Source of the DNA: Giardia intestinalis
Lineage: Eukaryota
Direction: 5' to 3' (one strand)
Length of the DNA: 64,000 bases
NCBI GenBank assembly: GCA_000002435.2
Contig: CM018793.1
Below the pieces are notes generated by a model that was not told where the DNA came from, did not search any database, and saw nothing but the letters and a program-made list of their open reading frames with translations. Numbering within the stretch: the first letter of the stretch is position 1; the number at the start of each line of letters is the position of its first letter. Made by a program: the position numbers and the translations under genes. Shown here piece after piece: positions 12,495 through 48,853 of the stretch.

Positions 12495-15400
12495 CTACTC
12501 AACTAGAGATACATTGAAGCGCATTCTCACACCCATCGCTGCGAGGTCATTGGCAAGAACGAGCAGCACCATGGGTATTTGTATGAGCCGCCCGTGGCCT
12601 GTAGCCTTACATTCTCGGCAGACACTTCCGCCCAGCTGCATTCCAAGCAGACTTCCACATGCAGCGCAGACAACGTGCTCCGTGGCGTCACTCTCTGTGC
12701 AGAGTCTACCCCTAAGGCTCGCCATAGCTCCGTGGGCCAACAAAGCATCTCGCTCCATTTCTCCGAAGCGCAGGCCGCCACCCCTCTTACGCCCCTTGAT
12801 GGGCTGCTTTGTGATCTTGTCGGAGGGGCCTTCTGCGCGAACCTGGTACTTGTCTGACACCATGTGTCGTAGACGCTGATAGTAGACAACGCCAATGAAA
12901 ATGTCGGCTGGCATTGGGTCCCCAGTTATGGCGCTGTACATGACCTCCGACCCGTACCTATTAAATTGGCCTGTTTTGAGAAGTTGCTCACCAAAGACAT
13001 CTATAGCGCGACGCTCGTCACTCCACTGAAAAGGCGAAGAATCAACAAAGTCAGCGTAGTGCACGCCTATCTTGGAGGCAAGTGACTCTATAAGCATTCC
13101 GACTGTCATTCTGGATGGAAAAGCGTGGGGGTTAATGATGAGGTCGGGAACTATACCGCTGGAGGTAAAGGGCATGTCGGTTTGCCGCCACCGTATCCCC
13201 ATGATTCCTTTCTGGCCATGTCGGCTTGCAACCTTGTCTCCCACAACAGGAGTTCTGTCGTGCCGAATGACTATGCGCACGCGCTGAATAAAGTGTAGAG
13301 ATGAGCTCTCAGTTCGAGCACGGGTCTGCAACTGTCTAGAGGACTTTCTCTCCGCCTTGCTTGCGTGTGACCGCGGCGTTGCTGTTTGGTTATCTTCATT
13401 TGATTCGGAACCGCTACCTGGCTGGTTACTTATCTCATCATCCGAAGCATCATTATCAAGGTTGGATGAGTTGGAGTCTCCAGCTGGAAACGAAGAGTCC
13501 CGTTTCTTCTTTGTAGCAATATCGTTATCGGTCCAATACTCTCCTTTCGCAGCGCTTTTATGAATAACGATGACCTTCTCCACAAACCCCGGTTCGTGAT
13601 GGTACAGCTTGGTTGAGTAGCACTGCTTAGTTGGGTCATACGTTTGGTAGAATACACTGCCATGCGACAGGTATGCCCCAACGGGAGGAAGCCCGTCCTC
13701 GTCTAGCTCTGTGTCGTAGTTCTCATCCATGTGAGTCACAATATAGTCTGGGCTGCGCTTGAGGTAGGGCACGGCAGTGGCTACGGTTCGCATGTATCTC
13801 ATTAGCTTGTCGTCGTAGCAATCTATGTCGTGAACCGAATAAACGGTTCCGTGAAAAAGACCTCGCTCCAGCGAGGCCTTGTTGATCAGTGCTGCGTCCT
13901 CCATATCGTATGAGGTATACGCCGAGACTGCCACCACTAGGTTCGTGCCTGTTGGGTGGGTATCGAAGCCACCAATATCATGTATGATTGCGTTCCGCAC
14001 AAGAGGCTTCTGGGGAGTTGTAAGGAGATAGGACTTTGTATCATATTTATATGCAAGATTGCGGCACGGGATTCCCATCGTTTGCTTGAGCATTTGGCAC
14101 TCATACATGTTCCTGGGGGACTGATTGTGGTCCGAGAATGGCACCAGAAGCCCAAGAATGGAGAGAAGGGAGGTTGGGGTAATTTCTTGATGCGTAGTCA
14201 CCCCCAGGCGCACGTCGTCGCCATAGATGGCTATCTGAAGGAATATCTGCTCAAGAGGAGTAATATACTCTGGTGAATTATTAGTCAGTGAGTGGACAGG
14301 GCGATAGAATCGTCCCATGGATGTGTTCATATAGATTCCCGGAAAGAGATGATCTTTATTGCCCTTCTCTATAAAAACGACTTCGGTGTACGGGAAAATA
14401 ATAGACTTTACCTTTGCTGCGCGAATGCACGCGACAAGCTGAATTGCACGTTCATTCGTATCTAAATAGCCTAGAATAGTGCCATTGAGCACCACACAAA
14501 GGCTGTAGATATCAGAAAGAGAGGGGGAAAGCCCAAATTGTGCCAATAATATGAATAGATTTGCAATTTGATCGGTGGTTGGGGTGGAGCTGAGGACCGT
14601 GGCCTTATAGCAAAGATGCGTGAGTATTCCACATGGCGCACCATCCGGGGTGTGGACAGCACACTGGAAGCCGTAGGACTCTGGGTACAGTTTTCTAATG
14701 CTAGTGATTTTGTGAGTCGCAAAGGCGTTTCCTCGGTTTATGCAACGAAAATGCGCCAGGAAGCGGACGTAGTTTATCCTATCTGCAAGGACCGAGAGGC
14801 CACTCATATTAGAGTAGTCGTGGCCCTTGTATGCGCGCATCACTCCCGGTCCGGCAAGAGATCGCAGGCCACTAGACAAGGGCCTCCAAAGTTTGGGAGA
14901 GGCTATGTAATGAGAAATCCAAGAGTTTGAGAGCTCATAGCTGCCAATGGCTCCGGTGGAGGTGGCGTTTCGAGAGACAAGACGCATGATTTTGATGAGG
15001 GTAGACGTGACCTCTGCCTTGAAAAAGGCGCCAGGAGTAAGAGCCTCTTGCGAAGACAGCAGGTCTGGACTGTCTGGCTTTATAAAGCTACCAAAGAGCA
15101 GCAGGCATTTGCGGGCCATGAGGCACATCATATTAAACTTGGCTCTGGTGTCTTCCTTGGGGATGTTTATCAGAAGGTACTGCTCGAATAATAGGTCACA
15201 GCAGTCCACATCTGTCAAGTCATACCTATCTAACAAGGAAAGGATCATCCTGAACTTACCGCCAAGTAACTGCTTGCAGGCTTTGTGGGAGAAAATGCGA
15301 TATTTGTGAAAGTCTCGCAGCATAGCTTCAACCCGAAGGGAGACATATCCATCTTCTTTGGGGTGTGCTGAAGCACAGATGGTACAGATGGTGGAATAAA

Positions 15401-17608: not shown

Positions 17609-19855
17609 ATGTCTATAACGACTTCTGGCCAGTGGTTCGAGGCGGTGCACCAGAGGAACTACATGCTTGTTGAGCGCTACGCAGACAGGTTTGCGTCCTC
17701 GGTCAATAGTCACGGAGAGACCGCACTTATGTTGGCTACGCGCGCGCAAGATGTCCAGATGATGGAGCTCCTGGTTGGCTATGAGCGGGGCATGTTCAAT
17801 AAGATGGGGGAAACGGCGCTTGTCATTGCCATAGACAACAACTTGTTCATGGGGATCGAGCTTTTGGCGCGGAATGAGGCTAATTCGACGGGGTATGATG
17901 GGTCGTCTCCTCTACACCACGTTGTGAGGTCAAACAAGATTGATTTTGTCCCGTACCTGGCTCCTCTTCTGGCGCAGAAGTGCGATGACGCTGGAAGGAC
18001 GCCTCTCGAGCTGGCAGCAGAACTAGGCTACACAGAAATGATGGAGCGTCTCATCCGCCACGGACTCCCTGTGGCCACGGCAGATCAGATCAATCGTGCA
18101 GCTCAAATTGCTGAGGAGCACGGATTTCCAGACTGTGCGTATGCCATCCGCAATACATCGGCGCCGCCCACCGATACGCAGGGAGGACGCCAGATTTTCA
18201 GCGGCACAGGACATATTTGCGAGAATGCCCGAAGTGATCAGTATTATAATGACGTCACTGCGAATCAACTACACGCTCACAGCGCACGAATTGTTGCACC
18301 AGTTGTGCCTCCAGAGCTAGACCCAGAGCAGATAGAGGGCATGGGGAAAGGGCACAGCATGTCCCCCTATGCAATTTACAACACAAACTGTCTAAACTGC
18401 GAAAAGAACATCACCGCTCTTGTTTCCTTGCTAATCGATAGGGATCAGACGGTGTCAGAGCTTAGACACAGACTTGATGTTGCCCAGAATGATAACGTTA
18501 TCCTCAAGAAGAAGATCCGAGCCCTGGAAGAACTTCAGGAGCGGCACTACCAGGGGTCGATAGAGCACGCCATGGCCATCGAACGCGAGGCTAACCCGGA
18601 TCGCTACGTGGGGACAAATAATACTGTCGACCCATCGCATTCTCAGATCGAAAACCAATTGGACTTCAGCCATTCGGCCACGGCAACTCCGTCGCGGCAA
18701 GCAACTACTTCCAAGCTGGGGACTTCCAGGGGGAACTCGTCGATGCAATTGACAGGAGGATTCACTGAAAGGCACCTGAAGTGTCTGTCTCCGTCTCAAC
18801 GACAACAAGTCATCGAAGACGCAGCAACTATCGAGCTGGCAAATGACTACAAGACCCTCAGAACCCTGGGAATAGACGTCTCGAATGTCGTATCAGGGAC
18901 GACAAAGCTGTCCAGTAGCTCTACTGCAGATACGCTCAGGAGATCTCTGAGTAATTCGGGCCGGGTTCGGTCTATGCCAAGTGACACTGTACTGAACTGC
19001 GAGCCGGGATCTGCTCCATACTCCACACATATTTCCCGCAGATATGGCGACTCTCCATCCCGTTCGACATCTCGCACCAGAACAGCCCTATCGAGTTCAC
19101 AAACACGTGCGGGGAGCAACACTCTGCGTCGTTCTGGCTCAGTTACAGGTACGGCCACAGGAGCAACCAAGGCACATGGATCTACCTCTACCTCAAGAGC
19201 CCAGTCCAGAACACAGTCTAGGAATCAATCCCGCACGGGCCGGTCGGGCTCCACGGTGGACCGGCAAAGACATATGCCCCCGAGCAAGACTAATGCGATG
19301 GATGAAACGGAGCTCATGCTTGCCGCGCTTAACGGTGACTTGATGCTCGTCGATCAGCTGAGACATACGCAAGTGGGGTATGTCAACAAGTTTGGTAAAA
19401 CAGCGCTGATGTACGCGGCAGAACGGAACCATGTATCCTGCGTAACGCTCCTGTTTCTGAAGGAAAGTGGAAAGCAAGATAGAGATGGGATGTCCGCCTT
19501 GATGTACGCGGCTCAGTATGGCTACATGACCGTCTGCAAGACCCTTATGTATGCCGAGGCGAAGCTCACACGACACGACGGAATGACTGCATTGATGCTT
19601 GCGGCAAACAACGGTCACGAGCTTGTGGTTTCAATTCTCTTAGAGTTCGAAGCAGGATACCAGAACGTGGAGGGCATGACGGCGCTTATGTTAGCTGCAC
19701 AGAATGGCCACCTGGAATGCTGCAAGCTGCTGTGTTCGCAGGAGATCTTTATGGTTGATAATGAGGGCCACGACGCGGTCTGGCATGCTCGGGAATACGG
19801 CAGACAAGCCATTGCAATTGAGCTTAAGCATTACAAGGACTGCTTCAGTAAATAG
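17609..19855 (+). CDS. Ankyrin-repeat protein, Giardia 'protein 21.1' family
   Basis: N-terminal ankyrin block with a DWF-type start (SGQWFEAVHQRNY…GETALMLA), a coiled-coil segment, an Arg/Ser/Thr-rich middle, and a C-terminal ankyrin block with repeated G(M/K)TALM.AA. Initiator cataaaaaactaccgcttggattctacgccATG. Confidence 0.85.
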   Translation: MSITTSGQWFEAVHQRNYMLVERYADRFASSVNSHGETALMLATRAQDVQMMELLVGYERGMFNKMGETALVIAIDNNLFMGIELLARNEANSTGYDGSSPLHHVVRSNKIDFVPYLAPLLAQKCDDAGRTPLELAAELGYTEMMERLIRHGLPVATADQINRAAQIAEEHGFPDCAYAIRNTSAPPTDTQGGRQIFSGTGHICENARSDQYYNDVTANQLHAHSARIVAPVVPPELDPEQIEGMGKGHSMSPYAIYNTNCLNCEKNITALVSLLIDRDQTVSELRHRLDVAQNDNVILKKKIRALEELQERHYQGSIEHAMAIEREANPDRYVGTNNTVDPSHSQIENQLDFSHSATATPSRQATTSKLGTSRGNSSMQLTGGFTERHLKCLSPSQRQQVIEDAATIELANDYKTLRTLGIDVSNVVSGTTKLSSSSTADTLRRSLSNSGRVRSMPSDTVLNCEPGSAPYSTHISRRYGDSPSRSTSRTRTALSSSQTRAGSNTLRRSGSVTGTATGATKAHGSTSTSRAQSRTQSRNQSRTGRSGSTVDRQRHMPPSKTNAMDETELMLAALNGDLMLVDQLRHTQVGYVNKFGKTALMYAAERNHVSCVTLLFLKESGKQDRDGMSALMYAAQYGYMTVCKTLMYAEAKLTRHDGMTALMLAANNGHELVVSILLEFEAGYQNVEGMTALMLAAQNGHLECCKLLCSQEIFMVDNEGHDAVWHAREYGRQAIAIELKHYKDCFSK
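19847..19853 (+). promoter_or_regulatory. AGTAAAT poly(A) signal overlapping stop codon
   Basis: …ttcAGTAAATAGagag. The AGTRAAY motif shares its last T with the TAG stop at 19853-19855. Confidence 0.5.
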
Positions 19856-19911
19856 AGAGGGTGAGGGTCACAGGGGAGGATGTGCGCGAAGGCGTGTAAT
19901 CAAAAATTCAT

Positions 19912-22062
19912 ATGGGCTCGGACACAGTGACCGATTGGTTCAATGCCGCTTTTGACAATGATCACCGCTTCATCAAAGAAAATGTTGAAACGTATGCACG
20001 AACCATAGACTCCACCAAGGAGACAGCGCTCATGAAGGCTGCCAGACGCAATTGCGGGTCCGTGGTGGAGATCCTTTGCGATCATGAATCTGGGCTTTAT
20101 AATAGCCGTGGAGAGAGTGCCCTTATGCTAGCGATACAGAACAACAGCGTGGACTGTTTGGGTGTGCTCTGCGAATACGAGTCTGAACAAATGATCTCAA
20201 ATGGGGACACGCCCCTCCATTACGCCATTCGTATGGGCTGTGTTGAAGCCATCTCTTATTTGACAAGCCGTTATAAGAGAGCACGCTCTAGGGCCGACCG
20301 CACACCCCTCGAGTTTGCAGCTGAGTTGGGGTCCATTCGCTCTATCGAGCACTTGCTGGTCTCTGGTACCCCATATACACAATTAGAAATAGATCGGGCG
20401 ATTGAGCATGCTCGTGCATGTGGACAGATGGTGATCGTCTCTACTCTCCCGATCCTTTTTAAGAGGTACTGGCGTGTCGCAAATTCAAGACAAGACACAG
20501 GAGAGCCAGTAACAGTAGAAGATCTGCGAGCCTTCGAGCCTGAGCCTGCACCTGGAGGGCCTGTCGTTGACGGTCTAGCCCTGAAGAACGCTCTTTTGTC
20601 TGCCGGTGTCCCTGTCAGTGAAGCCAACTCTGTTGTCAGGTCTCTCAGCCAGCCGGCAATCCAATCTATGAGGCAGCTCGCTGCTCCAGCTCCGTGCACG
20701 GACAGCTTCAGAGAGCTTACTGATTCTATGCGACAGCTAGCGTATCCTAGTAACGAAACACTCGATCAGATCCACGAGTCGCAGAATGGGCCGCAGGTAT
20801 TGGCTTCCGCCTATCAGGATCCCGGTGCCGATGGCGTGGATTATGCGAACTTCATGGGGTTCAGAGGGAGACGTGACGACGAGTCGGTGATTTCGGCCGA
20901 TGTCGTGGATAACATCGTTGCCGTCAAGAATGCAGAGATTGCAAGGCTAGAGGACGCTCTTCGCGAGGCAAATGCTCGCCTTCGCATGGCTGAAGGTAAC
21001 GCGGCTGTGAGTCAGGCTAATAGGGTCACTGGGACCTCTTCGGGACACATAGACCGCAAGACACACGAGTATATTCCTGGGACAGTGGAGAGCCCACTCA
21101 ACTATTGTTCAAACAAGATCGCAAACGACGGAGGAGACCACCGTGCCGCTTATCGCGGGGATGTCTACTCAGCTTCTTGCAGCATCCAGTCTCCGAGCAG
21201 ATCGGGCAGGGCGAGCTCTCGTAGTAGAAGCCGCAGTAGCAGTCGTAGCACATCTCGCTCGCATTACGGTAAGGGCTATAGGCCGGAGGTCAAGCCCCGC
21301 ACCAACTCGGCGTCGAGCGTTGCTCGGTCTGATAGCGCTCGTACGTCTCAACTTAAACCTGAGACGCTGATTCCTCCTATGTCCCAGAGGCGCTTGCAAC
21401 CAGGCGCTGCTGGAGACTCTGATCTGATAATTGCAGTGAAGAACGGTGATATCATCAAATTCAGGAAGTATCTTCCCCACCAGACAAGACAGGTCGACTC
21501 TCGCGGACGCACTGCCCTCATGCATGCTGTAGATCGAAACAACACGCTGATGATCACGGAGCTGTGCAACATAGAAGCAGGAATTCAGGATGCGGATGGC
21601 ACCACGGCGCTCATGATAGCTGCGGCCCTAAATCTGCCCCTGGCTGTCTCAATGCTTGTGTCACACGAGAAGCGATTCACCAAGCGCATTGACGGCTCCA
21701 CGGCCCTTATGGCGGCTGCCTCCAATGGGAACATAGATTGTGTCGATATTCTTGCCCGCCACGAAAAGGGCATTCAGGCCCACGATGGATCAACGGCCCT
21801 AATTCATGCGATTCGTAATAATAGGCGCCGCTGTGCGTGCCTACTCTGGCCACTTGAGCACGCAATAGCAGACCGTGACGGCATCTCTCCGCGCGACTGG
21901 GCCAAAAGGTTTAACCGTCAAGAGATTCTCAAGGTGGTAGACTCGCATACCCCATCGAACACTGAGGCGAGGTCGAATATGTATCTTCCTCCTACTATAA
22001 ATCCATCCTATATGGTTCGTGATATCGAACATACTGTCAACCTCCTAAACACAAAAAAGTGA
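19912..22062 (+). CDS. Ankyrin-repeat protein, 21.1 family
   Basis: N-terminal TDWFNAAF…KETALMKA ankyrin block, a coiled-coil segment (AEIARLEDALREANARLRMAEG), an RS-rich tract (RSGRASSRSRSRSSSRSTSRS), and a C-terminal ankyrin block. Confidence 0.85.
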   Translation: MGSDTVTDWFNAAFDNDHRFIKENVETYARTIDSTKETALMKAARRNCGSVVEILCDHESGLYNSRGESALMLAIQNNSVDCLGVLCEYESEQMISNGDTPLHYAIRMGCVEAISYLTSRYKRARSRADRTPLEFAAELGSIRSIEHLLVSGTPYTQLEIDRAIEHARACGQMVIVSTLPILFKRYWRVANSRQDTGEPVTVEDLRAFEPEPAPGGPVVDGLALKNALLSAGVPVSEANSVVRSLSQPAIQSMRQLAAPAPCTDSFRELTDSMRQLAYPSNETLDQIHESQNGPQVLASAYQDPGADGVDYANFMGFRGRRDDESVISADVVDNIVAVKNAEIARLEDALREANARLRMAEGNAAVSQANRVTGTSSGHIDRKTHEYIPGTVESPLNYCSNKIANDGGDHRAAYRGDVYSASCSIQSPSRSGRASSRSRSRSSSRSTSRSHYGKGYRPEVKPRTNSASSVARSDSARTSQLKPETLIPPMSQRRLQPGAAGDSDLIIAVKNGDIIKFRKYLPHQTRQVDSRGRTALMHAVDRNNTLMITELCNIEAGIQDADGTTALMIAAALNLPLAVSMLVSHEKRFTKRIDGSTALMAAASNGNIDCVDILARHEKGIQAHDGSTALIHAIRNNRRRCACLLWPLEHAIADRDGISPRDWAKRFNRQEILKVVDSHTPSNTEARSNMYLPPTINPSYMVRDIEHTVNLLNTKK

Positions 22063-22064
22063 AT
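22058..22064 (+). promoter_or_regulatory. AGTGAAT poly(A) signal overlapping stop codon
   Basis: aaaaAGTGAATgtcc. The TGA stop is at 22060-22062. Confidence 0.5.
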
Positions 22065-22117
22065 GTCCTGTAAGTTTGGCGCGGTGACCCCCAAGTGTAT
22101 AAAATTCTCCACCCTGT

Positions 22118-22131
22118 GACATTTTTAAAAA
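22118..22131 (+). promoter_or_regulatory. A/T-rich initiator element
   Basis: gacatttttaaaaaATG lies immediately 5' of the 22132 start, in the Giardia-type initiator context. Confidence 0.45.
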
Positions 22132-24003
22132 ATGGTCGTTTCAACGCAGTCGGACTGGTTCCGTGCCATTGCGCAGAAGAACTACGGGGAGATCTCCGCA
22201 GCCTCAGCAGCGTTTTCGAAGTCTGTAGACCAAGAAGGGAACACGGGGCTCATGATTGCTGCCTCAAATAATGACGCGGAAATGTGTCGCATGCTGGGGC
22301 CTCTCGAGAAGGGCATGTTTAATAGGCACGGCGAAAACGCCATCACCATCGCCATTAAGAAGCGTGCGCTCGACTCTGTCCCCGTTCTGGCTCAGTTTGA
22401 GGCGTTTTATCGTCTGCGTGACGATTCGACCCCGCTACATTATGCTGTTCGCAATCTCTTCCCGGAGAGCATACCCTTCCTCGTCCACTATCTAAAGGAC
22501 AAACCTGATGGTCGTGGGATGACAGCACTGGACCTTGCCGCTGATCAGGGCAACGCAGTCGCTTGTGAGACAATTCTCAAGTATGGTGTTGGCTGGACCC
22601 CACTCCAGCTAGAACGCGCCGCTGAACATGCCAATCTTCATAGCTATCACACGGTTGCAAATCTCATCAGGGATTACAAGATGGACAGTACTCTTGCAAC
22701 CAAGCTCGCGGTCGACGCCGCAGTGATTCGTAACAGCATCGTCGGAAGCACTCTTAATCCCCTGGCTGCCGTTGACCCTGTTACGGCGAGTATCGAGAAT
22801 GCCGTCTTGTCATCGAGAATCACCGACGAAATCGCGCGTACCGGCCACTCCTCGACGTTAGATGCCGTGACAGCCTCGAAGCTTATTCCCCCGTCACTGG
22901 CTACAGCGTCTGCCATTACTGCCTCCCAGCTTGCTACTCGCGCTGCACTCGCCACGACTCCCTACTATAACCCAGTAGCTGCTCAGGCCGCTGCTACCCA
23001 AGCAGCCCTAACGGCATCTCAGCTCTACAACCCTCTTGTTCCAGGGTCGGCCACCGTTGCCACTGCCGCCGCGAACGCCGCAGCCACGGCAGCTGTCCAG
23101 GACACGCTTGTTCGCTCTGCGGTTGCCAACAACGTCTTGGCAGCCCAGCGCATATATGATCCGCTGTGGTTCCAGCCTTCTCTTGCCGCCACCGCCTCGT
23201 TCGTTGCAGCCAACAGGATCAACCAGGCTCTGACTGAGAGTGCAAGGATCCGGGCCAATGCCGCCTTGCACGCCGCCAATGCCGCTGCCGCCGCTGCAAC
23301 CGACAAGTCTGCAGCGGTAGCTTCCCTCAAGGCGACACTCGATGAGCTGGCTGAGTCCACTCCTGAGGCAGCGGCTATCAATAGCATTACTGCCTCCATG
23401 CGTGCCGAGAATTACGTTCTCGACAGCGCCACTGGCCGCTATCCTAATGGGGATACAGAACTGATAAACGCCGCAAAGAATGGAAACCTCAACTCTGTCC
23501 GTATCTTGTTGAACACGCAGGCGGGACTCATCAATAACCGCGGGAAGACCGCGCTCATATGTGCTGCTGAGCGCAACCACATAGCCTGCGTCTGTGAGCT
23601 CTCGCCCAAAGAGAGCGGCATGTCGGATTATGAAGGGATGACGGCACTTATGTACGGTGCGTCGTACGGCCTTCGCGAGGTTGTTACCGCCCTGCTACAT
23701 CCTGAAAAGCGCCTTTCTAGGCCGCGTGATGGAGGCACTGCCATGATGGCTGCGGCGGCTAATGGCCACTTTGACTGCGTAAAAGTTCTGCTCGACCACG
23801 AGCATGGAATGCAGTCGTTGGACGGAACGACTGCGCTGATCCTTGCCGTTAAGTTTAACCGTAGGCACGTGGCTCAACTCCTTTACAGCACCGAGTACGA
23901 CATCAAGGACTCCATGGGCAAGTCTGCGCGTGACTGGGCGACGGAGCTCAACAGAAATGCTATCCTTGAGGATATGAAGGAGTATGAGCGTGCAAGGTCT
24001 TAG
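22132..24003 (+). CDS. Ankyrin-repeat protein, 21.1 family, with Ala/Thr-rich repetitive core
   Basis: N-terminal QSDWFRAIAQKNY…GNTGLMIA ankyrin block, a central Ala-rich low-complexity region of about 200 aa (ATASAITASQLATRAALATTPYYNPVAAQAAATQAAL…), and a C-terminal ankyrin block. Confidence 0.85.
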   Translation: MVVSTQSDWFRAIAQKNYGEISAASAAFSKSVDQEGNTGLMIAASNNDAEMCRMLGPLEKGMFNRHGENAITIAIKKRALDSVPVLAQFEAFYRLRDDSTPLHYAVRNLFPESIPFLVHYLKDKPDGRGMTALDLAADQGNAVACETILKYGVGWTPLQLERAAEHANLHSYHTVANLIRDYKMDSTLATKLAVDAAVIRNSIVGSTLNPLAAVDPVTASIENAVLSSRITDEIARTGHSSTLDAVTASKLIPPSLATASAITASQLATRAALATTPYYNPVAAQAAATQAALTASQLYNPLVPGSATVATAAANAAATAAVQDTLVRSAVANNVLAAQRIYDPLWFQPSLAATASFVAANRINQALTESARIRANAALHAANAAAAAATDKSAAVASLKATLDELAESTPEAAAINSITASMRAENYVLDSATGRYPNGDTELINAAKNGNLNSVRILLNTQAGLINNRGKTALICAAERNHIACVCELSPKESGMSDYEGMTALMYGASYGLREVVTALLHPEKRLSRPRDGGTAMMAAAANGHFDCVKVLLDHEHGMQSLDGTTALILAVKFNRRHVAQLLYSTEYDIKDSMGKSARDWATELNRNAILEDMKEYERARS

Positions 24004-24069: not shown

Positions 24070-25503
24070 ATGTCCTTCCGGGATCCCGATCAGTGGTTTT
24101 GCGCGATACGGGAACGCAATTTAGAGGCTATCAAGGCGAATGCCGAGCGATTTGCAGGAGCCCGTGGGCCTCATGGAGAGACGGGACTAATGCTGGCGGC
24201 AAAACTGAATATTCCAGAAGTTGTCTTTTTCTTAGCCCCTCGTGAAAAAGGGTGCTACAATCATGACGGAGATACGGCGCTAAAACTGGCTATGGACGAA
24301 CACAATTTTGCATGCATTGATGAGCTTTTGCACTACGAGATACACCTAAAGACATCGAAGGGCTCCACACCTCTTCACTCGGCTGTTCGGCAAAATCTTC
24401 TGGGCTACCTATCTGTCTTGGTCAGATACTGGAAGAGCACACCTGATGGCCAGGGGCTGAGTGCTTTAGATCTAGCGGCGCAGCTGGGGCATGACGAAGC
24501 AGCAGAGTATCTACTCAAGCACGGCTCCTTCACTCATCAGGAGGCAGAGCACGCAAGTGAGGTTGCTAGAGGGGCAAATCACTATATGCTTGCAAGGAGC
24601 ATATTGTCTGTTGCAGCACAGTTCTGCGATCAGTCGGCAACTGAGTCGCGGCGAGCAATGGTGTCTCATCATCAAAGCAGTAGAAGTATAGGCAAATCGA
24701 TTACTGAAGACTCTGCACACGGACCTTCGCTTCCGCTCCCAATCTCTGATCGCTCCAGGTCCTTTAGACACTCATATCTTGATAAGGACAATACCGAAAC
24801 CCTTGCAAGCACGCCAGAACTCTATGCCTTTAACTGCCCACGATGTAGGACCATGTTTGAATCTATGGCTAAGCGGCTAAAAGAGACGACAGCTGAGTGT
24901 CGCAGGCTGAAAGAAGAGCTGTCTCGGAGACATGCCAGCGACAAGGGGTCTTCATCGACAAGTGCACTTGTGGAAAAGACGCCAGATCCCAAGCCAATAG
25001 GTCTTAAGACAACGCTAGCCGAGACAGCGCCCCCAGTAAGAGCCCCACAAATGCCCTTTCTGTCGTTCGACACAGACAATAATGCTCCAGGAGAACCGAG
25101 TGGGAGCAGCTTCAGCATAGCAATTGGCCACGACAACCCCCAATCGTCCATCCTTGTTCCCCCGACCATTACTCATGGACTTGATCGACAAAACATTAGT
25201 GGCAGAGCTGAGTCCACAAACCATAGCCTAAGGAGCATTCGAGGCGGGGGACCTTCACTGCACAGTGTTGAGCGGAATAATCCTCTCCACACTCCAGAAT
25301 ACTATAACGCTACGAACCAGTCTCCATCCTACCTGCAACGCATTGCAGCATTGCGTTCGCAAGCTTCAGCGACTCCGCTCCAAGTCCCTGAGCGTGCGGT
25401 TTCCCACAACTTAAATCGTAAGGTGTCTCCTTTGACTCAGGATAACTCCACATATAGCATATCGTCCCTCAGACCATCATCTTACGAGACTACTAGCCAC
25501 TAA
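24070..25503 (+). CDS. Ankyrin-repeat protein (21.1-like N-terminal plus middle portion), possibly the 5' part of a disrupted gene
   Basis: PDQWFCAIRERN…GETGLMLA ankyrin block followed by a Ser/Pro-rich tail. It lacks the C-terminal ankyrin block found in its paralogs. Stop is at 25501-25503. Confidence 0.7.
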   Translation: MSFRDPDQWFCAIRERNLEAIKANAERFAGARGPHGETGLMLAAKLNIPEVVFFLAPREKGCYNHDGDTALKLAMDEHNFACIDELLHYEIHLKTSKGSTPLHSAVRQNLLGYLSVLVRYWKSTPDGQGLSALDLAAQLGHDEAAEYLLKHGSFTHQEAEHASEVARGANHYMLARSILSVAAQFCDQSATESRRAMVSHHQSSRSIGKSITEDSAHGPSLPLPISDRSRSFRHSYLDKDNTETLASTPELYAFNCPRCRTMFESMAKRLKETTAECRRLKEELSRRHASDKGSSSTSALVEKTPDPKPIGLKTTLAETAPPVRAPQMPFLSFDTDNNAPGEPSGSSFSIAIGHDNPQSSILVPPTITHGLDRQNISGRAESTNHSLRSIRGGGPSLHSVERNNPLHTPEYYNATNQSPSYLQRIAALRSQASATPLQVPERAVSHNLNRKVSPLTQDNSTYSISSLRPSSYETTSH

Positions 25504-25571
25504 CTCGGACTTTGCATCCCAATTTAAGGCACGTTGTTACATTACTTTTGCGTCAAAAGTTGGACGCTCCA

Positions 25572-26198
25572 ATGTCACGGCCGCCAAATGGAAAGAATGA
25601 TGACAAGTGGGAGATTATGGGGGAACCAACAGAGTACGTCTACACTATAACAACTAATCGAGCTTTTACAGCCCTCATGGAGGCCGCCCGAGCGGATGCG
25701 TTAGAGGATGTTTTGAACTACTCCAGCACGCAGGCACGCATGACAACTCCTACCGGGCAGACTGCATTAATGATTGCTGCAGAAGCAGGAAACTTCAACT
25801 CTGCACGGGTGCTTTTGCCGCTGGAGAAAGGCATGCAGACGAACGACGGACGTACCGCACTCATGCATGCTGCGGCAGCAGGCTCTATCTCTCTTACCAA
25901 GCTTCTCATTCCGCACGAAGCAAAGATTACCAGTGAACGGGACGGTCACACGGCGTTGATGGAGGCAGCTAGGGAAGGCCACTGTGGGGTTGTGGAGATT
26001 CTTCTCCAGCACGAAGTCGGTATGCGGCAGTACATGGGTTTGACCGCTCTAATTTACGCCATCCATGAGGGACACAGTGAGTGCGTCGCAGCCCTTGCAG
26101 AGGCCGAGAGCCACCTCTGCTCATATGATGGGAAGAGCCCAGTTGTGCATGCACTTGACACCGGCAACAAGTATTTGTTTCCATATTTGAAGATCTGA
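25572..26198 (+). CDS. Ankyrin-repeat protein fragment (21.1-type C-terminal block), possibly the 3' part of a disrupted gene
   Basis: An open frame begins 9 nt after the upstream stop, in a different frame. Track start 25512 is TTG; the first ATG is at 25572. Consists only of G.TALM.AA ankyrin repeats. Confidence 0.55.
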   Translation: MSRPPNGKNDDKWEIMGEPTEYVYTITTNRAFTALMEAARADALEDVLNYSSTQARMTTPTGQTALMIAAEAGNFNSARVLLPLEKGMQTNDGRTALMHAAAAGSISLTKLLIPHEAKITSERDGHTALMEAAREGHCGVVEILLQHEVGMRQYMGLTALIYAIHEGHSECVAALAEAESHLCSYDGKSPVVHALDTGNKYLFPYLKI

Positions 26199-26204
26199 CG
26201 GGGA

Positions 26205-26211
26205 ATTTACT
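26205..26211 (-). promoter_or_regulatory. AGTAAAT poly(A) signal overlapping stop codon
   Basis: Minus strand reads ctAGTAAATtcc. The TAG stop of the 26210..27772 gene lies inside the motif. Confidence 0.45.
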
Positions 26212-27772
26212 AGTACGCTGGAAGGCTCCTAACCATTTGGACTTCGTGTTCATCAGTCCTTCTGCCTGTCCTCTGCAGCGCTTTAGTCACGTTGCAGCTG
26301 CGGAGCATGGTGCTGGATTTAGTTCCCTCTTTGAGTATTGGTGCTGTTGCCGTATTTTGTTGTCCTCCACTAAAGTCTCTAAGGGTGACCGCTGTGCTTC
26401 GAGCCGCGTTGAACTCGTTATAATATTCTCTGTCGTATGTCTCTGATGCATCTACCAGCCTGTCAACAACCTTACGCCAATGCCCTATGTTACTTGCTTC
26501 TTTACGGCCCACAGTGGGCTTTTCGTGTTCTAGCAAGGTTGCTCTAGATGGCCCCGGCAGGGTTTCGCAGAGCTCAGATGCTGTGCGGTACTTCTTCACT
26601 CCCACGACCTGACCTGCATGGGGCATGTGGGAGTCGTCTGCATAGAGCTCCACCTTTTTCTTATACACATGCTCACTTGGGCACGGCTGGTACTCGGGTA
26701 CTATGTGTGGATTGAGTTTAGTATAGGCAATGTACTTCTCGCGATCGTGCTCTAGTTCGTACTTTGTTTCGACAGAAGGGGCGTCTTTATGCGAAGGAAC
26801 ATAGGCAGTAGGGTCGGCCTTGGACATAGGGTTATCATAAGTTTCATCTCCTATGGACCTTTTAATTCCAAAGCCCTTCTTTTCAGCTCCCGAGTAGCTG
26901 TGACTGAGTCTTCTTCCGATGAAATCTGCCGAGTAGATCGGTGGCTGCTTGTTACCACTGATTGCTCCGCATAAAAATGCATAGTCTTTATCTCTAATTG
27001 ATGGATCATGCGGGTCTTTCCCATAATATCTTCTACACTTGTCGCTGAGTTTGTTGAAGCTGTACATGGCTTTCGCCCCCTCAATGTCAATACACGATTG
27101 AGTGTCCTTGGTGGTCTTTCGCAGCGAGCCGTACAGCCTCTCCCGTTTGATACGGTCGTTTTCCAAAATGTCATCGGCCTTGAGTGAAAGGTCTCCCCGT
27201 TCGACTACGTTTCGATTGAGCAGTTTTTCATTTGTTAGGGTGCACCCCGAAGCTACAGGTTGCTCTGCGTGCTTCCACTGATAAATGGGGTTGTTGGGGT
27301 TGAAGTCTGCCTGTCTGAACTCGTATGGTTTGGGGTCGTTAATGCTTACGTCTGAACTGAGCATCATGTAGTCGATTGTTCGGGGCCTGATCTCCTTGAC
27401 CTCTGTTCTCTGTTCTGCAATGTCGCTGACGTCTAGATTTGTGTTGCGGACCTTCTTAGTGTAAAGAGGCTTTGATTTGGCACCTTCAATGTCGGATATA
27501 TCTATCTGGTCCCGCAGAAAGCGCGGGGGCGTGACGGGCCTTTCTTCGACAGTCGGTAGCTTGTAATCCGGTTCCAGTGGGTCCACGCTTCGGTTTGTTC
27601 GAAAGTCCTTGGAATGCGGTTGCGCGCCTTCGATGTCATCTGTCTTCAGCGAGGAGAAAACCCGCGTGCCAGATTGCCGTATTACGGGAAGCTTTTCCGG
27701 GTAGCAACTGATGACCTTGTCTGCCCTTAGCTCCTTTGTGTGATAGTGCAGTGGTCCATCGCCAGGCTGCAT
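26210..27772 (-). CDS. Hypothetical protein with dispersed DIEGA[KQ] repeats
   Basis: 520 aa. ATG 27772 is preceded by aatttcaaaaATG. Motifs KTDDIEGAQP (aa 46-50), SDIEGAKSKP (aa 94-98) and CIDIEGAKAM (aa 229-233). Otherwise no recognised domain. Confidence 0.6.
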   Translation of the reverse strand: MQPGDGPLHYHTKELRADKVISCYPEKLPVIRQSGTRVFSSLKTDDIEGAQPHSKDFRTNRSVDPLEPDYKLPTVEERPVTPPRFLRDQIDISDIEGAKSKPLYTKKVRNTNLDVSDIAEQRTEVKEIRPRTIDYMMLSSDVSINDPKPYEFRQADFNPNNPIYQWKHAEQPVASGCTLTNEKLLNRNVVERGDLSLKADDILENDRIKRERLYGSLRKTTKDTQSCIDIEGAKAMYSFNKLSDKCRRYYGKDPHDPSIRDKDYAFLCGAISGNKQPPIYSADFIGRRLSHSYSGAEKKGFGIKRSIGDETYDNPMSKADPTAYVPSHKDAPSVETKYELEHDREKYIAYTKLNPHIVPEYQPCPSEHVYKKKVELYADDSHMPHAGQVVGVKKYRTASELCETLPGPSRATLLEHEKPTVGRKEASNIGHWRKVVDRLVDASETYDREYYNEFNAARSTAVTLRDFSGGQQNTATAPILKEGTKSSTMLRSCNVTKALQRTGRRTDEHEVQMVRSLPAY

Positions 27773-40100: not shown

Positions 40101-41760
40101 CATTGATGTGGCCGAAACCTCTCCGGAAAGCCAATCGGTGAGCCTTTGCGCAGATGGTATATCCCTTCTGTCCGCACGCCGTGGAAGGGCTATCAGCCAA
40201 ATAACCCGCCGGGAGCTGCAGACCATTGGGGTGAACTCGGCCGTAGACGATAGTACCACGTCTCTGCACGAAAGGCCGGGATACTGTCCGGTTTGCAAGC
40301 TTTTACGTGTTCCTTCGGACTTGCGCCTCACGCAGCGCGCTATGGCCTTGTGCCCCTCTTCCTCTCAGGCTGAAGAGCTTATCCATTACTGTGTGTGTGC
40401 CCAAGCAAGCGCCTTTCCAGATGCAGGAGAGTTCACCCATTCTTATTCAGAGCCTGCATGTACTAACTACAGTAACCACTCTATTGACAAGCTCATTCTT
40501 TCGTGCTACATACAGAAGGACAACTGCGATGCTAATAGCCACGCCCCGTCCCCTCTTCCTCGCGCTGCTCGTAGTGGGGCATCCTTTGGCCCGGGACCCT
40601 TGGTTTCTCAGGAGGATGTTGGCAAGAACAATGACAGAACGGTGTCTGCCAACGATTGTGAGTGTTTACCGAGTCAATTTGTCCTGTCGCACGTATCTGT
40701 ATCGCACCCTTCCTCAACAGTGGGCCCCTGGATGTTACCCTTCAGCAAAACAAGGTCGCTTGTGCTCACTTACACCGAGAGGCTAATAGTTTCTGCGATC
40801 TCGTACCTGTCACTTCGCTCCGGAATATATACCTCAATGCAGGTTCCAAGCGAGGCAGCGGCATCCTGCTTCACGAAATATGAGCAAACGCCAACTGTAA
40901 TCGGATGTAAGACGAACCAGGTACTTTTGTCTAAAGTAGATACGGTCTGCGAGCCTGGTAAAAAGCACTGTTTAGAAGCTGGGAGTGAGGTAAGAGAGAT
41001 TGGCGACGACTCTACTAACTCAGTCGGGAGCTCCGGGGCGGAAAGGGTGCGGTTAGCCTGCAGGCACCGAAGGAGGTCTGCCGGTAACACAGGAAATTTC
41101 AAGGCAGTGGGCTGGGCAGACGATCTGGGTGGAACGGAGGGGCGCACACAAAAGCCCCGCTATAGCACTTTATCTCATTCAAAGTCCGGGATGCTCACAC
41201 GATTGCCATATGCAGAGCTCCAAAGACTTGGATACGTAACTCCACTACCGAAGCAACGAAGGACGCCGGTAAAGTGGAAAAAGCCTAGTAAGGTTTTCTT
41301 ACTTTCTAAGGAAATATCCACCTGCTCGTCTAGAGAGCCGTGCATATCTGTGTGCTCTCTGGCCTTCACGGCGCATGGCGTATTCAACTGTCTGCTGCTT
41401 CTGGACATAGGGCTCATTGACTTTTTTCATACAGCACGCATGTTTCGGTGGATTGGCGTTGTAATTACAATCGTTCTAGCAGGAGTTTTAGCATCTATAT
41501 TGAAGGAGCTCAACACATACCTAGTCTTTGAAGACAAGAGTCCGGGATACGTCTGTGTTCCATATACACGGATATACGTCTCCCCGCGCCAGATCGTGGC
41601 TGTCTGTCTGCGCTTCCTCCTGCCGACAGTTTGCTTTATGGCAACAGGAGTGGGGCTAAGCCTGTACCCACAGTCACGTCTTCTGATGCTTCTGTTGGCT
41701 CTACTCGAGTGTATGTTCGTCGCAAAAATAAGCAAATTCTCAATTCGGAACATTTCGTAG
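34174..41760 (+). CDS. Giant Myt1/Wee1-family protein kinase with split catalytic domain and C-terminal TM anchor
   Basis: N-lobe at aa ~60-195: LGQGCSGKTYKVLFQRDGRLYAMKKKR (compare Myt1 GRLYAVKR), and catalytic loop IAHCDLKPENILV. The C-lobe resumes at aa 1238 with DFG (LSDFGHAQ, nt 37885-37893), followed by GDSRYICPQFL, DVYSFGMTILEVMTNVNIPPNGE (compare Myt1 DVFSLGLTILEVA…ELPHGGE) and LIEPDTSLRPSI. Two C-terminal hydrophobic helices lie at aa ~2440-2520. Single uninterrupted ORF. Confidence 0.8.
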   Translation: MPFAGSAHPPILQQKGPAKQKMQRPETPLGASMARRTCMEGSLVYLDKSTNIKSMQRVNHSIIMANYTVLEILGQGCSGKTYKVLFQRDGRLYAMKKKRSATSEDVKEGILITSLKCPVCIPCYLCWIEDNSTYFVTDLAHCSLDSILDYYHFLIEDLIWILMADISMALEYIHANGIAHCDLKPENILVTNRIDGYNVPPKNCGDSYTIDTSMDRLTPINDPNLKRSYVAQRAAALARSKSDKAKDTYINKSQNKPFSVASSSHSQQASATNTVPTTGVASVVSTPMHTSIVSTAVNQKLSEDTLYPIASENVTTSMDQLSLHTTFPRAQVIHSDLRNCILSTHRQSFPLIISPCYERAADGKYFVRHKKGGFLLDKINLIKRSYSDSTLVVLKHTETMLSNNYPREYIFCEYEDQFHNEVQDNSHLIIQHFELGSPMKTRYSTPMHRFSSTLNQTMDCQAVDADVDQGMRIPHLGMSEPVINFHFVNISERISDTEWTRSFEKPQSTIENSVDSVVFSSKQDLEVFRVEEESSGGMKSNCVPNELMRHSSVLAVSAKSLEKADDVIEDLEESLTATQPSKKVEVDHLSTDATLQNTSPTSQSNKAITLLATCKHDHTCHSAVFNCSEDSSTTNPKHATKLVSLQKDKSVLCAAFRKLPRNNSYRLALLAMVSRKPLYSLYFNTRFLYRRRPNHWAYYFNHCKKHTYHIAKPSFLLCRSVNSVPIKPKTLMDEILSLSHYDHNSQIPTVTMPAPQDQESVDQDSRGIKSAITIGLAKNFLLDSCSSSGLYIDEKSIKYANHDSSKSSILSSHLEGDISPSIEADTFTKQLSSIPHQSRCAMLPAPATTGQCSHQPNLAIQYNFDRYHHSGENPKVDTFRKRGHTMYNSSRHALQATTSPPSRSCSQGLTTWSVSRPTTDLSLSLLLEPTSTYDSAITEYAQYRTNNFKTNSRHNELAESLNKPTLQGQKRQNAFLGSLPDDMQLFNLSHSAHFQNGSFSGDIQPPFFEDYSYPNSRYAFSPAQAYKTPFTRSTGSQKKHDPCIYASSSKVHRLCRPKDMYAVLDVHPFQQMGFMDSDISCLLPPYGYQLYRANNLLSTSMCGDTYGNHSPMNFLSLVPSTSHTPVNVVPVAVDTEHSSPESSSSNEGSVQHTPLLTPRQFPVLPGPPDRDANCSNCSQPSIKSASFQDSMKCGDQTKQSNRPIFSPVSSDTSLSRSSVINTCNSQSILQNLVFTLSDFGHAQEAPFKESNTGDSRYICPQFLRTGIPDYSADVYSFGMTILEVMTNVNIPPNGESFECLRSHKKAVLDMLDANVFGRNLSAQLHEDDAAGSDLHRSLSFITPRITYSKDLWLAMLDLIEPDTSLRPSIRTWRKKWKSQLDRIDRTKLYQKIESDQRAVGLIMNDRLAPSAVDKMKDASSKDLLFPQHTSFTNGDSSHNPFQSTVSSCKSNADFINTLNSTYQSKVYYNKDNQIHPHSINNSTATSTKMVPIKWLDSCFCQDPSKSTNAISSINRPADMLNTRPLNYGDLHCSAHLDTQLNPSDLCHDTYKHAVPVPGTYTSICSCDTPCNVYAKSRSRSHCTDFQSRTELLGPDIGDDYLDFGLSYRQESMTPTTIVINKQHTNTQGSLQQDHHHVVGAMSMGPAKSVHKSARSEGAETPASLERCGYLSLNWHSSLNEDSFELDHSQLKSPTSALQKAHQSALTCAGLDVGALDSFSIRAESDMILLDNRMREAPSEIQVGEPFPISFQSHESSESALLSTELQLKALVDDGSCENLDVEPKDSDHLIKSAVNTTLSSKAHASTQSVALFASPRKPAEQTSATCTSESQIDSIQNDTLAVGKHVAVGQAHSSASFTSNTTDRGKANNPTQSIVNTLLNSPVSGIFEHSDHSDLSVHSTKSSKSCNSTLHQSVVHPKSFVKSSLSDQKSHLGQKDYASTQSLTSSCESALRNTHSLPHISPLCSSLRSVILSANPIDVAETSPESQSVSLCADGISLLSARRGRAISQITRRELQTIGVNSAVDDSTTSLHERPGYCPVCKLLRVPSDLRLTQRAMALCPSSSQAEELIHYCVCAQASAFPDAGEFTHSYSEPACTNYSNHSIDKLILSCYIQKDNCDANSHAPSPLPRAARSGASFGPGPLVSQEDVGKNNDRTVSANDCECLPSQFVLSHVSVSHPSSTVGPWMLPFSKTRSLVLTYTERLIVSAISYLSLRSGIYTSMQVPSEAAASCFTKYEQTPTVIGCKTNQVLLSKVDTVCEPGKKHCLEAGSEVREIGDDSTNSVGSSGAERVRLACRHRRRSAGNTGNFKAVGWADDLGGTEGRTQKPRYSTLSHSKSGMLTRLPYAELQRLGYVTPLPKQRRTPVKWKKPSKVFLLSKEISTCSSREPCISVCSLAFTAHGVFNCLLLLDIGLIDFFHTARMFRWIGVVITIVLAGVLASILKELNTYLVFEDKSPGYVCVPYTRIYVSPRQIVAVCLRFLLPTVCFMATGVGLSLYPQSRLLMLLLALLECMFVAKISKFSIRNIS

Positions 41761-41779
41761 CCGTAGACAGCCAAAATAA

Positions 41780-48282: not shown

Positions 48283-48853
48283 GGATTAAAATTTTAATTT
48301 TTACAAGCATTCATGGCCCCGGGGAGGCTCATCTCTGCTTCTTAGGGCTCGAATATGGAGCGCGCCTCTAATTATAACCCACGATGCTTCTGAAGAAAGG
48401 TATCATGGTATAAAAGCACAATCCCACCTAGTTCCAAGGCACTTTCTGGCAAACTTTTTGTGAAAAAGGAAATTGATGGCCTACGCGAGCCATTGTCTTC
48501 CTTCGAGCCCTCCATTGTAATTCTTGTCATGTGGGGTGCGCTCTTAGGTTTCTAAAGTCACCCTCTTCAGGAGTGTTAAAAAGCACCGCAGCCAGAACAG
48601 GAGGTTGGTTCTTAAGTGTGCATACATCAACAACAGAGCCCTTCTACTTGTCAACTTTTATCTGCGTCTATGCATGTTGTTTTCGTAGAGTTCCGTTTTC
48701 ATCAGAAGGGAATGCATACCGAGAATGTGCCTTTAGGGCTGAAGCCACACGCCAGACAAGGGGGGAGCCTAGAATAGAAGCAAGTGTAGAGGTAAATTTG
48801 AAGTATCACTCTCTATCTGAGAACACCATTGGCTGCTCAAAAATTAAAAACAC

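What the first reader, a model, noticed from the sequence alone, without database searches (positions are those of the whole stretch)
24070..26198. One array member is split: N-terminal plus middle (24070..25503) and C-terminal ankyrin block (25572..26198) in different frames, 9 nt apart
The 477-aa ORF ends after its Ser/Pro-rich middle with no C-terminal ankyrin block. A new frame opens 9 nt later, and from its first ATG at 25572 it encodes only a C-terminal ankyrin block. Together they total ~700 aa, the same as the intact neighbours (748, 716 and 623 aa). This fits a frameshift or nonsense disruption (a recent pseudogene or an assembly error) or a gene-fission event.
Basis: partly seen in the sequence, partly recalled or inferred. 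Interest (0 to 1): 0.5.

Follow-up and report, generated by a model that had tools for sequence, protein, structure and literature searches.

The report
Conserved split ankyrin gene in Giardia
One member of a four-gene ankyrin-repeat array in Giardia is encoded as two separate, selectively maintained genes in every Giardia duodenalis lineage examined, so this is an old gene fission and not a sequencing error or a dying gene.

Summary
The window is Giardia intestinalis WB. It carries a tandem array of "Protein 21.1 / ankyrin repeat protein 1" genes. The fourth member is a 477-aa ORF (24070-25503: N-terminal ankyrin block plus Ser/Pro/Thr-rich middle) followed by a 208-aa ankyrin-only ORF (25572-26198) in another frame.

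The "recent frameshift / assembly error / pseudogene" reading is refuted. The same two-ORF layout is syntenic in five G. duodenalis lineages: WB (assemblage A), P15 (E), GS-type (B) and two further divergent lineages.
- The upstream stop sits at the homologous codon but is TAA, TAG or TGA.
- The downstream ATG is conserved.
- The spacer is 61-70 nt, so the frame offset differs between lineages.
- dN/dS is 0.10-0.14 for the N gene and 0.03-0.05 for the C gene.
- The spacer matches normal intergenic spacers of the array in length and has a conserved A-rich island 7-19 nt before the ATG.
- Giardia intron signals are absent.

Best explanation: an ancient gene fission within the linker, giving two independently expressed ankyrin proteins. 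Public annotations already list them as two genes. Separate transcripts were not shown here. This is ordinary biology of low interest.

The parts
24070..25503 (+). m4N gene: N-terminal ankyrin block (~4 repeats), a CxxC plus coiled-coil-like motif (NCPRCRTMFESMAKRLKE...), and a Ser/Pro/Thr-rich tail ending ...NISSLRPSSYETTSH-stop. It is identical to XP_037902261.1 / KAE8305356.1 'Ankyrin repeat protein 1', G. intestinalis WB.
   Evidence: Orthologs of 474-487 aa occur in P15, GS-type and two further lineages, with the stop at the homologous codon. dN/dS is 0.10-0.14.
25504..25571 (+). 68-nt spacer between the two genes. It is non-coding, poorly conserved, and variable in length (61-70 nt) between lineages.
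   Evidence: The length is like the other spacers in the array (56, 69, 66 nt). In-frame stops lie in the spacer upstream of the ATG in P15 and L005. No intron signals were found.
25553..25565 (+). Conserved A-rich island TCAAAAGTTGGAC (TCAyAAAArTTkGAmC across lineages), 7-19 nt upstream of the ATG. It is the putative AT-rich initiator/promoter of the downstream gene and may overlap the 3'-end signal of the upstream gene.
   Evidence: It is the only conserved block in the spacer. Analogous conserved A-rich blocks lie just before the ATG of the other array members. Giardia promoters are ~50 bp with an AT-rich initiator around the ATG (PMC2723961). The function is inferred and was not shown.
25572..26198 (+). 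m4C gene: 208-aa stand-alone ankyrin protein with a ~30-residue N-terminal leader of low predicted order and six ankyrin-type helix pairs.
   Evidence: The ATG and the 208-aa length are conserved in all lineages. dN/dS is 0.03-0.05. The AlphaFold2 model has mean pLDDT 88.8 and pTM 0.81, with six helix pairs over residues 34-205.
17609..24003 (+). The three intact array members: m1 (17609-19855, 748 aa), m2 (19912-22062, 716 aa, GL50803_11164) and m3 (22132-24003, 623 aa, GL50803_17060). Each has an N-terminal ankyrin block, a variable middle and a C-terminal ankyrin block.
   Evidence: Identifiers come from Table S1 of PMC3610916 by coordinate mapping. dN/dS is 0.015-0.083.

Best explanation
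The window is from Giardia intestinalis WB. It holds a tandem array of four paralogous 'Protein 21.1 / ARP-1' genes with a tripartite build: N-terminal ankyrin block, variable low-complexity middle, C-terminal ankyrin block. In the fourth member the coding sequence was broken within the linker before the divergence of the G. duodenalis assemblages. The break left a stop codon after ...SSYETTSH, a ~60-70 nt non-coding spacer, and a start codon (MS.PP...). The two pieces are now separate genes. m4N (477 aa) keeps the N block and the middle. m4C (208 aa) is a self-contained six-repeat ankyrin domain. Each is presumably transcribed from its own short AT-rich promoter. Giardia mRNAs have 1-14 nt 5' UTRs and Giardia ribosomes do not scan, so the strongly constrained C gene needs a transcription start inside the spacer, probably at the conserved A-rich island.

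Shown here: the two-ORF layout, its conservation in five lineages, purifying selection on both ORFs, the non-coding behaviour of the spacer, and the absence of splice signals.

Inferred: the direction of change (fission and not fusion), independent transcription, and the biochemical role (protein-protein interaction scaffolds, like other family members).
For: (1) Organism and family. The N ORF is identical to XP_037902261.1 'Ankyrin repeat protein 1', G. intestinalis WB, and only ankyrin Pfam families match.
(2) Synteny. The same order (m1-m2-m3, N ORF, C ORF, convergent 520-aa gene) occurs in P15 (assemblage E), in three GS-type assemblage B contigs, and in Logan assemblies of ERR3333378 and ERR3333382.
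(3) Conserved boundaries. The N ORF stop is at the homologous codon but is TAA/TAA/TAG/TGA/TGA. The C ORF ATG is conserved and the C ORF is 208 aa in all four lineages with a complete contig; in L006 it runs off the contig end after 207 codons. Spacers are 68/70/62/61/61 nt, giving frame offsets 2/1/2/1/1.
(4) Selection. NG86 dN/dS is 0.10-0.14 (N) and 0.03-0.05 (C), with dS of 0.5 to >1.5.
(5) Reproducibility. The exact 477-aa product is on 144 contigs and the GS-type product is on dozens.
(6) Spacer behaviour. It resembles genuine intergenic spacers of the array in length and in having a conserved A-rich block before the ATG. This matches published Giardia promoter and UTR properties (PMC2723961; PMC3610916).
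(7) Annotation. Exactly two identifiers lie between m3 and the 520-aa gene in AS175 (3826, 3825), P15 (495, 496) and GS (1031, 1030). P15 has called genes of 476 and 208 aa.
(8) Collinearity. N+C aligns with the intact paralogs, and a paralog outside this array, P0006 (831 aa, on a 4-kb contig whose called neighbours carry no recorded ankyrin hits), has the same tripartite build.
(9) Structure. The m4C model is a complete six-repeat solenoid.
(10) Distant lineage. In L008 (neighbouring 520-aa gene 48% identical) the m4N-like gene (657 aa, same position, convergent with the 520-aa gene) also lacks a C-terminal ankyrin block.
Against: No transcript or protein data for either half could be retrieved. 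The stored part of RNA-seq Table S1 is cut at about FPKM 44 and lacks these genes. The spacer has no exact AGTRAAY/AGTGAA polyadenylation motif, although about 47% of mapped Giardia polyA sites lack a prominent signal (PMC3610916). The polarity is not proven. In the C-block tree m4C is sister to all three intact members (97% bootstrap), which also fits an ancestrally split pair with a later fusion in the ancestor of m1-m3. The N-block tree is poorly resolved (46%). m4 evolves faster than m1-m3, which indicates some relaxation of constraint. The state in G. muris is unknown.
Confidence: 0.8

Rival explanations
1. Recent frameshift or nonsense pseudogene, or a sequencing/assembly indel in this assembly.
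For: In WB the two frames overlap by only 7 nt (25497-25503), so a single 1-nt change there would fuse them. m4 is the fastest-evolving array member.
Against: The same split occurs in five lineages with dS up to >1.5. dN/dS is 0.03-0.14. The stop position is conserved but uses three different stop codons, and the ATG is conserved. The exact product is on 144 contigs. In P15 and L005 an in-frame stop in the spacer means no single indel could fuse the ORFs.
Confidence: 0.02
2. Still one gene at the RNA or protein level, with the halves joined by cis- or trans-splicing (Giardia has trans-spliced split genes), programmed frameshifting or readthrough.
For: Giardia is known for trans-spliced split genes: 5 of its 11 introns are trans-spliced (PMC6679479). 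The CTAAC/CTGAC sequence overlapping the stop codon superficially resembles a branch point.
Against: On the + strand of 24070-26198 there is no VTATGTT 5' splice site and no VCTRACACRCAG branch/3' site, even allowing 2 mismatches. None was found in the other lineages either. The CTRAC is lost in assemblage B (CACTAGG). The frame offset differs between lineages (2/1/2/1/1), so no conserved recoding event can work. Protein conservation runs right up to the stop and restarts exactly at the ATG. In-frame stops lie in the spacer in two lineages.
Confidence: 0.03
3. The two-gene state is ancestral. m4N and m4C are the original separate genes, and the tripartite m1-m3 arose by fusion followed by tandem duplication.
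For: In the C-block NJ tree m4C is sister to the clade of m1+m2+m3 C blocks (97% bootstrap). Small ankyrin-only proteins exist elsewhere in Giardia, for example the 205-aa G. muris ARP-1 P0017. The distant lineage L008 has an N-only m4-like gene and a gene with only a C-terminal ankyrin block.
Against: A paralog outside this array (P0006, 831 aa) has the same N-block/middle/C-block build and the same N-terminal WF.AI motif. In the N-block tree m4N is nested with m1 and m3, not basal, though support is weak at 46%. The spacer length equals that of a ~20-codon linker, and N+C is collinear with the paralogs.
Confidence: 0.12

Closest known systems
[quoted passage not shown]
   Same: Both ORFs contain only ankyrin repeats and no other Pfam domain. 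The N gene is named 'Ankyrin repeat protein 1' in the WB record, and its orthologs are named 'Protein 21.1' in P15 and GS. The family has 242-267 members in WB (PMC7000408).
   Different: Nothing differs about membership. The particular point is that one tripartite member is represented by two genes, one keeping the N block and middle and one keeping the C block.
Gene fission of a multidomain protein into adjacent genes (split-gene pairs, as catalogued in comparative genomics)
   Same: Two adjacent same-strand ORFs are collinear with the N- and C-terminal parts of single-gene paralogs. Both are intact, conserved and under purifying selection.
   Different: The break lies in a disordered linker between two repeat blocks of a highly expanded, lineage-specific family and not between two enzymatic domains. 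Polarity rests on parsimony only. I found no paper describing this case.
Giardia trans-spliced split genes (e.g. Hsp90, dynein heavy chains)
   Same: A protein-coding unit is divided into separately encoded pieces in the same organism.
   Different: Those pieces are joined at the mRNA level through split introns with VTATGTT and VCTRACACRCAG signals and base-pairing intron halves (PMC6679479). Those signals are absent here, the N piece ends with a conserved stop, and the C piece begins with a conserved ATG.

Membership tests
Giardia Protein 21.1 / ARP-1 | Ankyrin repeats are the only recognisable domain (no kinase, zinc finger or other domain), per the definition in PMC7000408 | tested here: met
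   Only Ank-type Pfam families hit both ORFs. The definition was quoted.
Giardia Protein 21.1 / ARP-1 | Encoded in a Giardia genome and named as such in public records | tested here: met
   The N ORF equals XP_037902261.1 'Ankyrin repeat protein 1'. Orthologs are 'Protein 21.1' in P15 and ATCC 50581. The C ORF product is not in the protein collection, so its public name was not seen.
Gene fission pair | Adjacent ORFs collinear with the N- and C-terminal parts of a single-gene homolog | tested here: met
   Alignment with m1-m3. The junction lies in the linker.
Gene fission pair | Both pieces retained as intact ORFs under purifying selection in several lineages | tested here: met
   Five lineages. 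dN/dS is 0.10-0.14 and 0.03-0.05.
Gene fission pair | Ancestral state was a single fused gene | tested here: inconclusive
   A tripartite paralog outside this array (P0006) and three tripartite neighbours favour it. The C-block tree places m4C basal (97%), which also allows the reverse polarity.
Gene fission pair | Separate transcripts and separate proteins | not testable with these tools
   The stored RNA-seq and TSS-seq supplements do not contain these genes. This is inferred from the conserved A-rich island, the very short Giardia 5' UTRs and the lack of ribosome scanning.
Frameshift pseudogene | Relaxed selection (dN/dS near 1) and lineage-specific, non-homologous disablements | tested here: not met
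   dN/dS is far below 1. The stop and the start are at homologous positions in all five lineages.
Giardia spliceosomal (cis/trans) intron | 5' splice site VTATGTT and fused branch point/3' splice site VCTRACACRCAG | tested here: not met
   No + strand match within 24070-26198. No GTATGT or CACAG near the junction in any lineage.
Programmed ribosomal frameshift | Conserved frame relationship and a slippery site in the overlap | tested here: not met
   The frame offset is 2/1/2/1/1 across lineages, and the spacer carries in-frame stops in two lineages.

The most novel reading that the evidence does not exclude
The two products might still work as one unit. One version is a naturally split scaffold, in which the m4N tail and the six-repeat m4C domain re-associate non-covalently. 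Another is expression of m4C from a bicistronic m4N-m4C RNA by reinitiation, which would be unusual for Giardia because its ribosomes are thought not to scan. Conserved adjacency and orientation in all five G. duodenalis lineages is compatible with either, but the same adjacency is also expected from simple inheritance.
Probability: 0.07. Interest if true: 0.45.

Novelty: new member of a known kind. Interest (0 to 1): 0.15.

Why it matters
The main use is for annotation. These two ORFs should stay as two genes and should not be merged or flagged as a pseudogene. The locus is a clean, datable example of modular evolution in Giardia's largest cytoskeleton-associated gene family: ankyrin blocks are gained, lost or separated at disordered linkers. 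It does not open a new question. Its practical value is as a natural experiment for asking whether the N and C ankyrin blocks of 21.1 proteins act independently.

Tried and rejected
(1) Fused-query protein search to find an unsplit ortholog. All orthologs of the N part are 474-487 aa and none spans both parts.
(2) Search with the C ORF alone. Its orthologs are missing from the protein collection even though they are called on the contigs, so only distant ankyrin proteins came back.
(3) The G. muris 205-aa ARP-1 (P0017) as a possible C-gene ortholog. It is not syntenic, so I rejected it.
(4) Reaching G. muris through the neighbouring 520-aa gene. This gave two unnamed distant lineages (L008, L009) and not G. 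muris. L009 has no ankyrin genes near the homolog.
(5) Looking for a degraded C block downstream of the m4N-like gene in L008. Only noise appeared (E > 0.1).
(6) Intron and trans-splicing signals: none.
(7) Exact polyadenylation motif AGTRAAY in the spacer: none.
(8) Expression values from Table S1 of PMC3610916 and the TSS-seq supplements of PMC3792122. The stored files are truncated or too small. The neighbours were found but not the two genes.
(9) Literature search by accession or locus tag for the two genes: nothing.
Full report
**What is in the sequence**

The + strand of the window carries four consecutive paralogous genes:
- m1: 17609-19855, 748 aa
- m2: 19912-22062, 716 aa
- m3: 22132-24003, 623 aa
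- a fourth unit made of two ORFs, 24070-25503 (477 aa) and 25572-26198 (208 aa from the first ATG; 228 aa if the bacterial-style TTG at 25512 is used).

Pfam finds only ankyrin-repeat families. They occur at both ends of m1-m3. In the 477-aa ORF they occur only near the N-terminus (Ank_2 E=3e-16). In the 208/228-aa ORF they cover the whole length (E=2.6e-39).

The two ORFs are in different frames. The first ends at TAA 25501-25503. The second frame is open from 25497, after TAG 25494-25496. The distance from the stop to the first ATG is 68 nt.

Concatenated, the two ORFs (685 aa) align collinearly with m1-m3, and the junction falls in the low-complexity linker shortly before the first C-terminal repeat.

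**Where it comes from**

The 477-aa product is identical to XP_037902261.1 / KAE8305356.1, "Ankyrin repeat protein 1" of Giardia intestinalis WB (ATCC 50803). It is recorded on 144 contigs, the longest 4.0 Mb. m3 is XP_001708927.1 / A8B820.

These proteins are members of the Giardia-specific "Protein 21.1" family. The 2020 WB reference renamed the family ARP-1 and counts 267 members (PMC7000408).

Because this is a eukaryote, the ATG at 25572 is the candidate start, not the TTG.

**Comparative test of the frameshift, pseudogene and assembly-error readings**

A search with the fused 685-aa sequence found no protein spanning both parts. Every ortholog of the N part is 474-487 aa:
- P15 / assemblage E: 86% identity, 476 aa
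- a 71%-identical form of 474 aa
- two 67%-identical forms of 480 and 487 aa

I fetched the contigs for these. The 71% form is assemblage B. Its neighbour m3 is identical to EET01676.1, and the cluster contains EET01675.1, "Protein 21.1 [G. intestinalis ATCC 50581]". The 67% forms come from Logan assemblies of ERR3333378 and ERR3333382. I take these to be dog-derived assemblages C/D on the basis of divergence and run numbering only, so this is an inference.

All loci long enough to show it have the same gene order: RNA polymerase I subunit, m1, m2, m3, N ORF, C ORF, and a convergent 520-aa gene.

In all five lineages:
- The N ORF ends with ...NIS(S/T)LRPSSYxxxxH followed by a stop at the homologous codon. 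The stop is TAA (A, E), TAG (B) or TGA (the other two).
- The C ORF begins with a conserved ATG-TCA (MS.P...).
- The C ORF is 208 aa wherever the contig is complete.
- The spacer is 68, 70, 62, 61 and 61 nt, so the frame offset is 2, 1, 2, 1, 1.
- In P15 and L005 the C frame has a stop inside the spacer, so no single indel could fuse the ORFs there.
- The second Met in WB (MGEPTEY) is not conserved, so 25572 is the only shared start.

**Selection**

Nei-Gojobori dN/dS between lineages is 0.10-0.14 for the N ORF (0.05-0.10 for its ankyrin block, 0.09-0.18 for the middle). It is 0.03-0.05 for the C ORF. dS ranges from about 0.5 (A vs E) to more than 1.5.

For comparison, m1 is about 0.03, m2 is 0.05-0.08, m3 is about 0.015, and the neighbouring 520-aa gene is 0.02-0.05.

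The split member is thus the fastest-evolving of the four but is clearly maintained by selection in both halves. Together with the 144 contigs, this removes assembly error and recent pseudogenisation.

**The spacer behaves like an intergenic region**

Its length (68 nt) matches the other spacers in the array (56, 69, 66 nt). Across lineages it is poorly conserved and carries indels that are not multiples of three.

The exception is one island, TCAyAAAArTTkGAmC (window 25553-25565), 7-19 nt before the ATG. The other array spacers likewise keep a conserved A-rich block immediately before the ATG.

Published work describes Giardia promoters as about 50 bp with an AT-rich initiator around the ATG and little other intergenic conservation between WB and GS (PMC2723961). 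It describes 5' UTRs of 1-14 nt and ribosomes that do not scan (PMC3610916).

The C ORF is evidently translated, given its dN/dS of 0.03-0.05. I therefore infer that it has its own transcription start in the spacer.

The other spacers also carry a conserved GTGTAAAT-like block that this spacer lacks, and there is no exact AGTRAAY motif. However, about 47% of mapped Giardia polyA sites lack a prominent signal.

**Joining at the RNA or translation level**

Giardia has trans-spliced split genes, so I tested for this. The consensus signals are VTATGTT and VCTRACACRCAG (PMC6679479). Neither occurs on the + strand of 24070-26198, even allowing 2 mismatches for the second. GTATGT and CACAG are also absent near the junction in the other lineages.

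The CTAAC that overlaps the stop codon is lost in assemblage B. The variable frame offset rules out conserved frameshifting.

**Annotation evidence**

By mapping coordinates (window x = CH991768 position 346653 - x), Table S1 of PMC3610916 gives:
- m2 = GL50803_11164 / AS175_3828 / GLP15_493 / GL50581_1033
- m3 = GL50803_17060 / AS175_3827 / GLP15_494 / GL50581_1032
- the 520-aa gene = GL50803_16973 / AS175_3824 / GLP15_497 / GL50581_1029

Exactly two identifiers lie between m3 and the 520-aa gene in each of three independently annotated genomes. The P15 assembly has called genes of 476 and 208 aa.

The rows for the two genes themselves are not in the stored, truncated table, so I have no expression values.

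**Fission or fusion**

Three neighbours have the tripartite build. So does P0006 (831 aa, from ERR3333379), a paralog on a separate 4-kb contig whose called neighbours carry no recorded ankyrin hits. By parsimony the build is ancestral and m4 is the derived, split form.

NJ trees are only partly helpful. All orthogroups are 1:1 with 100% support, so the four-member array and the split predate the assemblage radiation. However, m4C is sister to the C blocks of m1+m2+m3 (97%), while m4N is weakly nested with m1 and m3 (46%). The reverse polarity, an ancestrally split pair, keeps roughly 10-15% probability.

**A more distant lineage**

L008 is a Logan assembly of SRR30592944 with 57% GC. Its homolog of the 520-aa gene is 48% identical to the WB gene.

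It has a 657-aa gene convergent with the 520-aa homolog. Its N block is closest to m4N (39-40% identity, against 36% for m1). It shares the CxxC plus coiled-coil motif and has no C-terminal ankyrin block. The 504 nt downstream hold no ankyrin remnant.

The m1-m3 block is inverted relative to WB, and the gene at the m1 position has only a C-terminal ankyrin block.

Orthology at this distance is tentative. The locus does suggest that N-only and C-only forms of these proteins are viable, and that the blocks behave as modules.

**Structure**

An AlphaFold2 model of m4C, built from a 10-sequence alignment, has mean pLDDT 88.8 and pTM 0.81. It shows six ankyrin-type helix pairs over residues 34-205 and a low-confidence N-terminal ~30 residues. 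This is a complete stand-alone repeat domain.

**Function**

Nothing here tests function directly. Family context suggests protein-protein interaction scaffolds:
- m3 (GL50803_17060) was recovered in the interactomes of GlPXD3 and pseudokinase Gl15411 at clathrin assemblies (PMC7058353).
- m3 was detected by proteomics (PMC7761642).
- Several ankyrin-repeat proteins localise to basal bodies and the ventral disc (PMC4931700).

**Verdict**

The feature is real. The explanation is an old, conserved gene fission (confidence about 0.8) in a large lineage-specific repeat-protein family. The two pieces are already annotated as separate genes in public genomes. I found no paper that describes the fission as such. 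It is an ordinary instance of a well-known process, so interest is low.

Noticed in passing
window 26198-26210 and 26210-27772 (-): The 208-aa gene and the convergent 520-aa gene have stop codons only 11 nt apart, so their 3' UTRs must overlap. The 520-aa gene is GL50803_16973, a hypothetical protein reported at basal bodies, posteriolateral axonemes and the median body (PMC4931700). It has no Pfam match.
   Followed up: partly
L008 11270-18483: In a distant Giardia-like lineage (Logan SRR30592944, 57% GC) the m1-m3 block is inverted relative to the m4N-like gene. The gene at the m1 position (13825-15312, 495 aa) has only a C-terminal ankyrin block. No C gene follows the 657-aa m4N-like gene. 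The organism is unidentified.
   Followed up: partly
window 25572-26198; L001 9502-10128; L002 9488-10114: The C-gene products of WB, P15 and GS-type contigs are absent from the 15-billion-protein collection by exact look-up, and they did not appear in the homology searches. This is despite genes being called at those positions on the contigs. The cause is unknown.
   Followed up: partly
window 18350-18520 (m1), 24800-24910 (m4N); L008 ~12700 (-): m1, m4N and the L008 657-aa protein share a CxxC motif followed by a coiled-coil-like stretch (NCLNCEKN..., NCPRCRTMFESMAKRLKE..., CDCRSCKNVFRQLQSRIMILEEENKAL). m2 and m3 lack it. This hints that m1 and m4 are closer relatives than the block trees resolve.
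   Followed up: no
whole window: The Giardia 5' splice-site heptamer VTATGTT occurs 29 times against 18.6 expected (0 of 100 shuffles reach 29), mostly on the - strand. None is paired with a branch/3' site motif near the finding. This is probably a compositional or codon effect.
   Followed up: no
window 41636-42415 and 47569-48297: Long ORFs overlap on opposite strands (41636-42361 - / 41780-42415 +; 47569-48297 + inside 45124-48282 -). I did not examine them.
   Followed up: no
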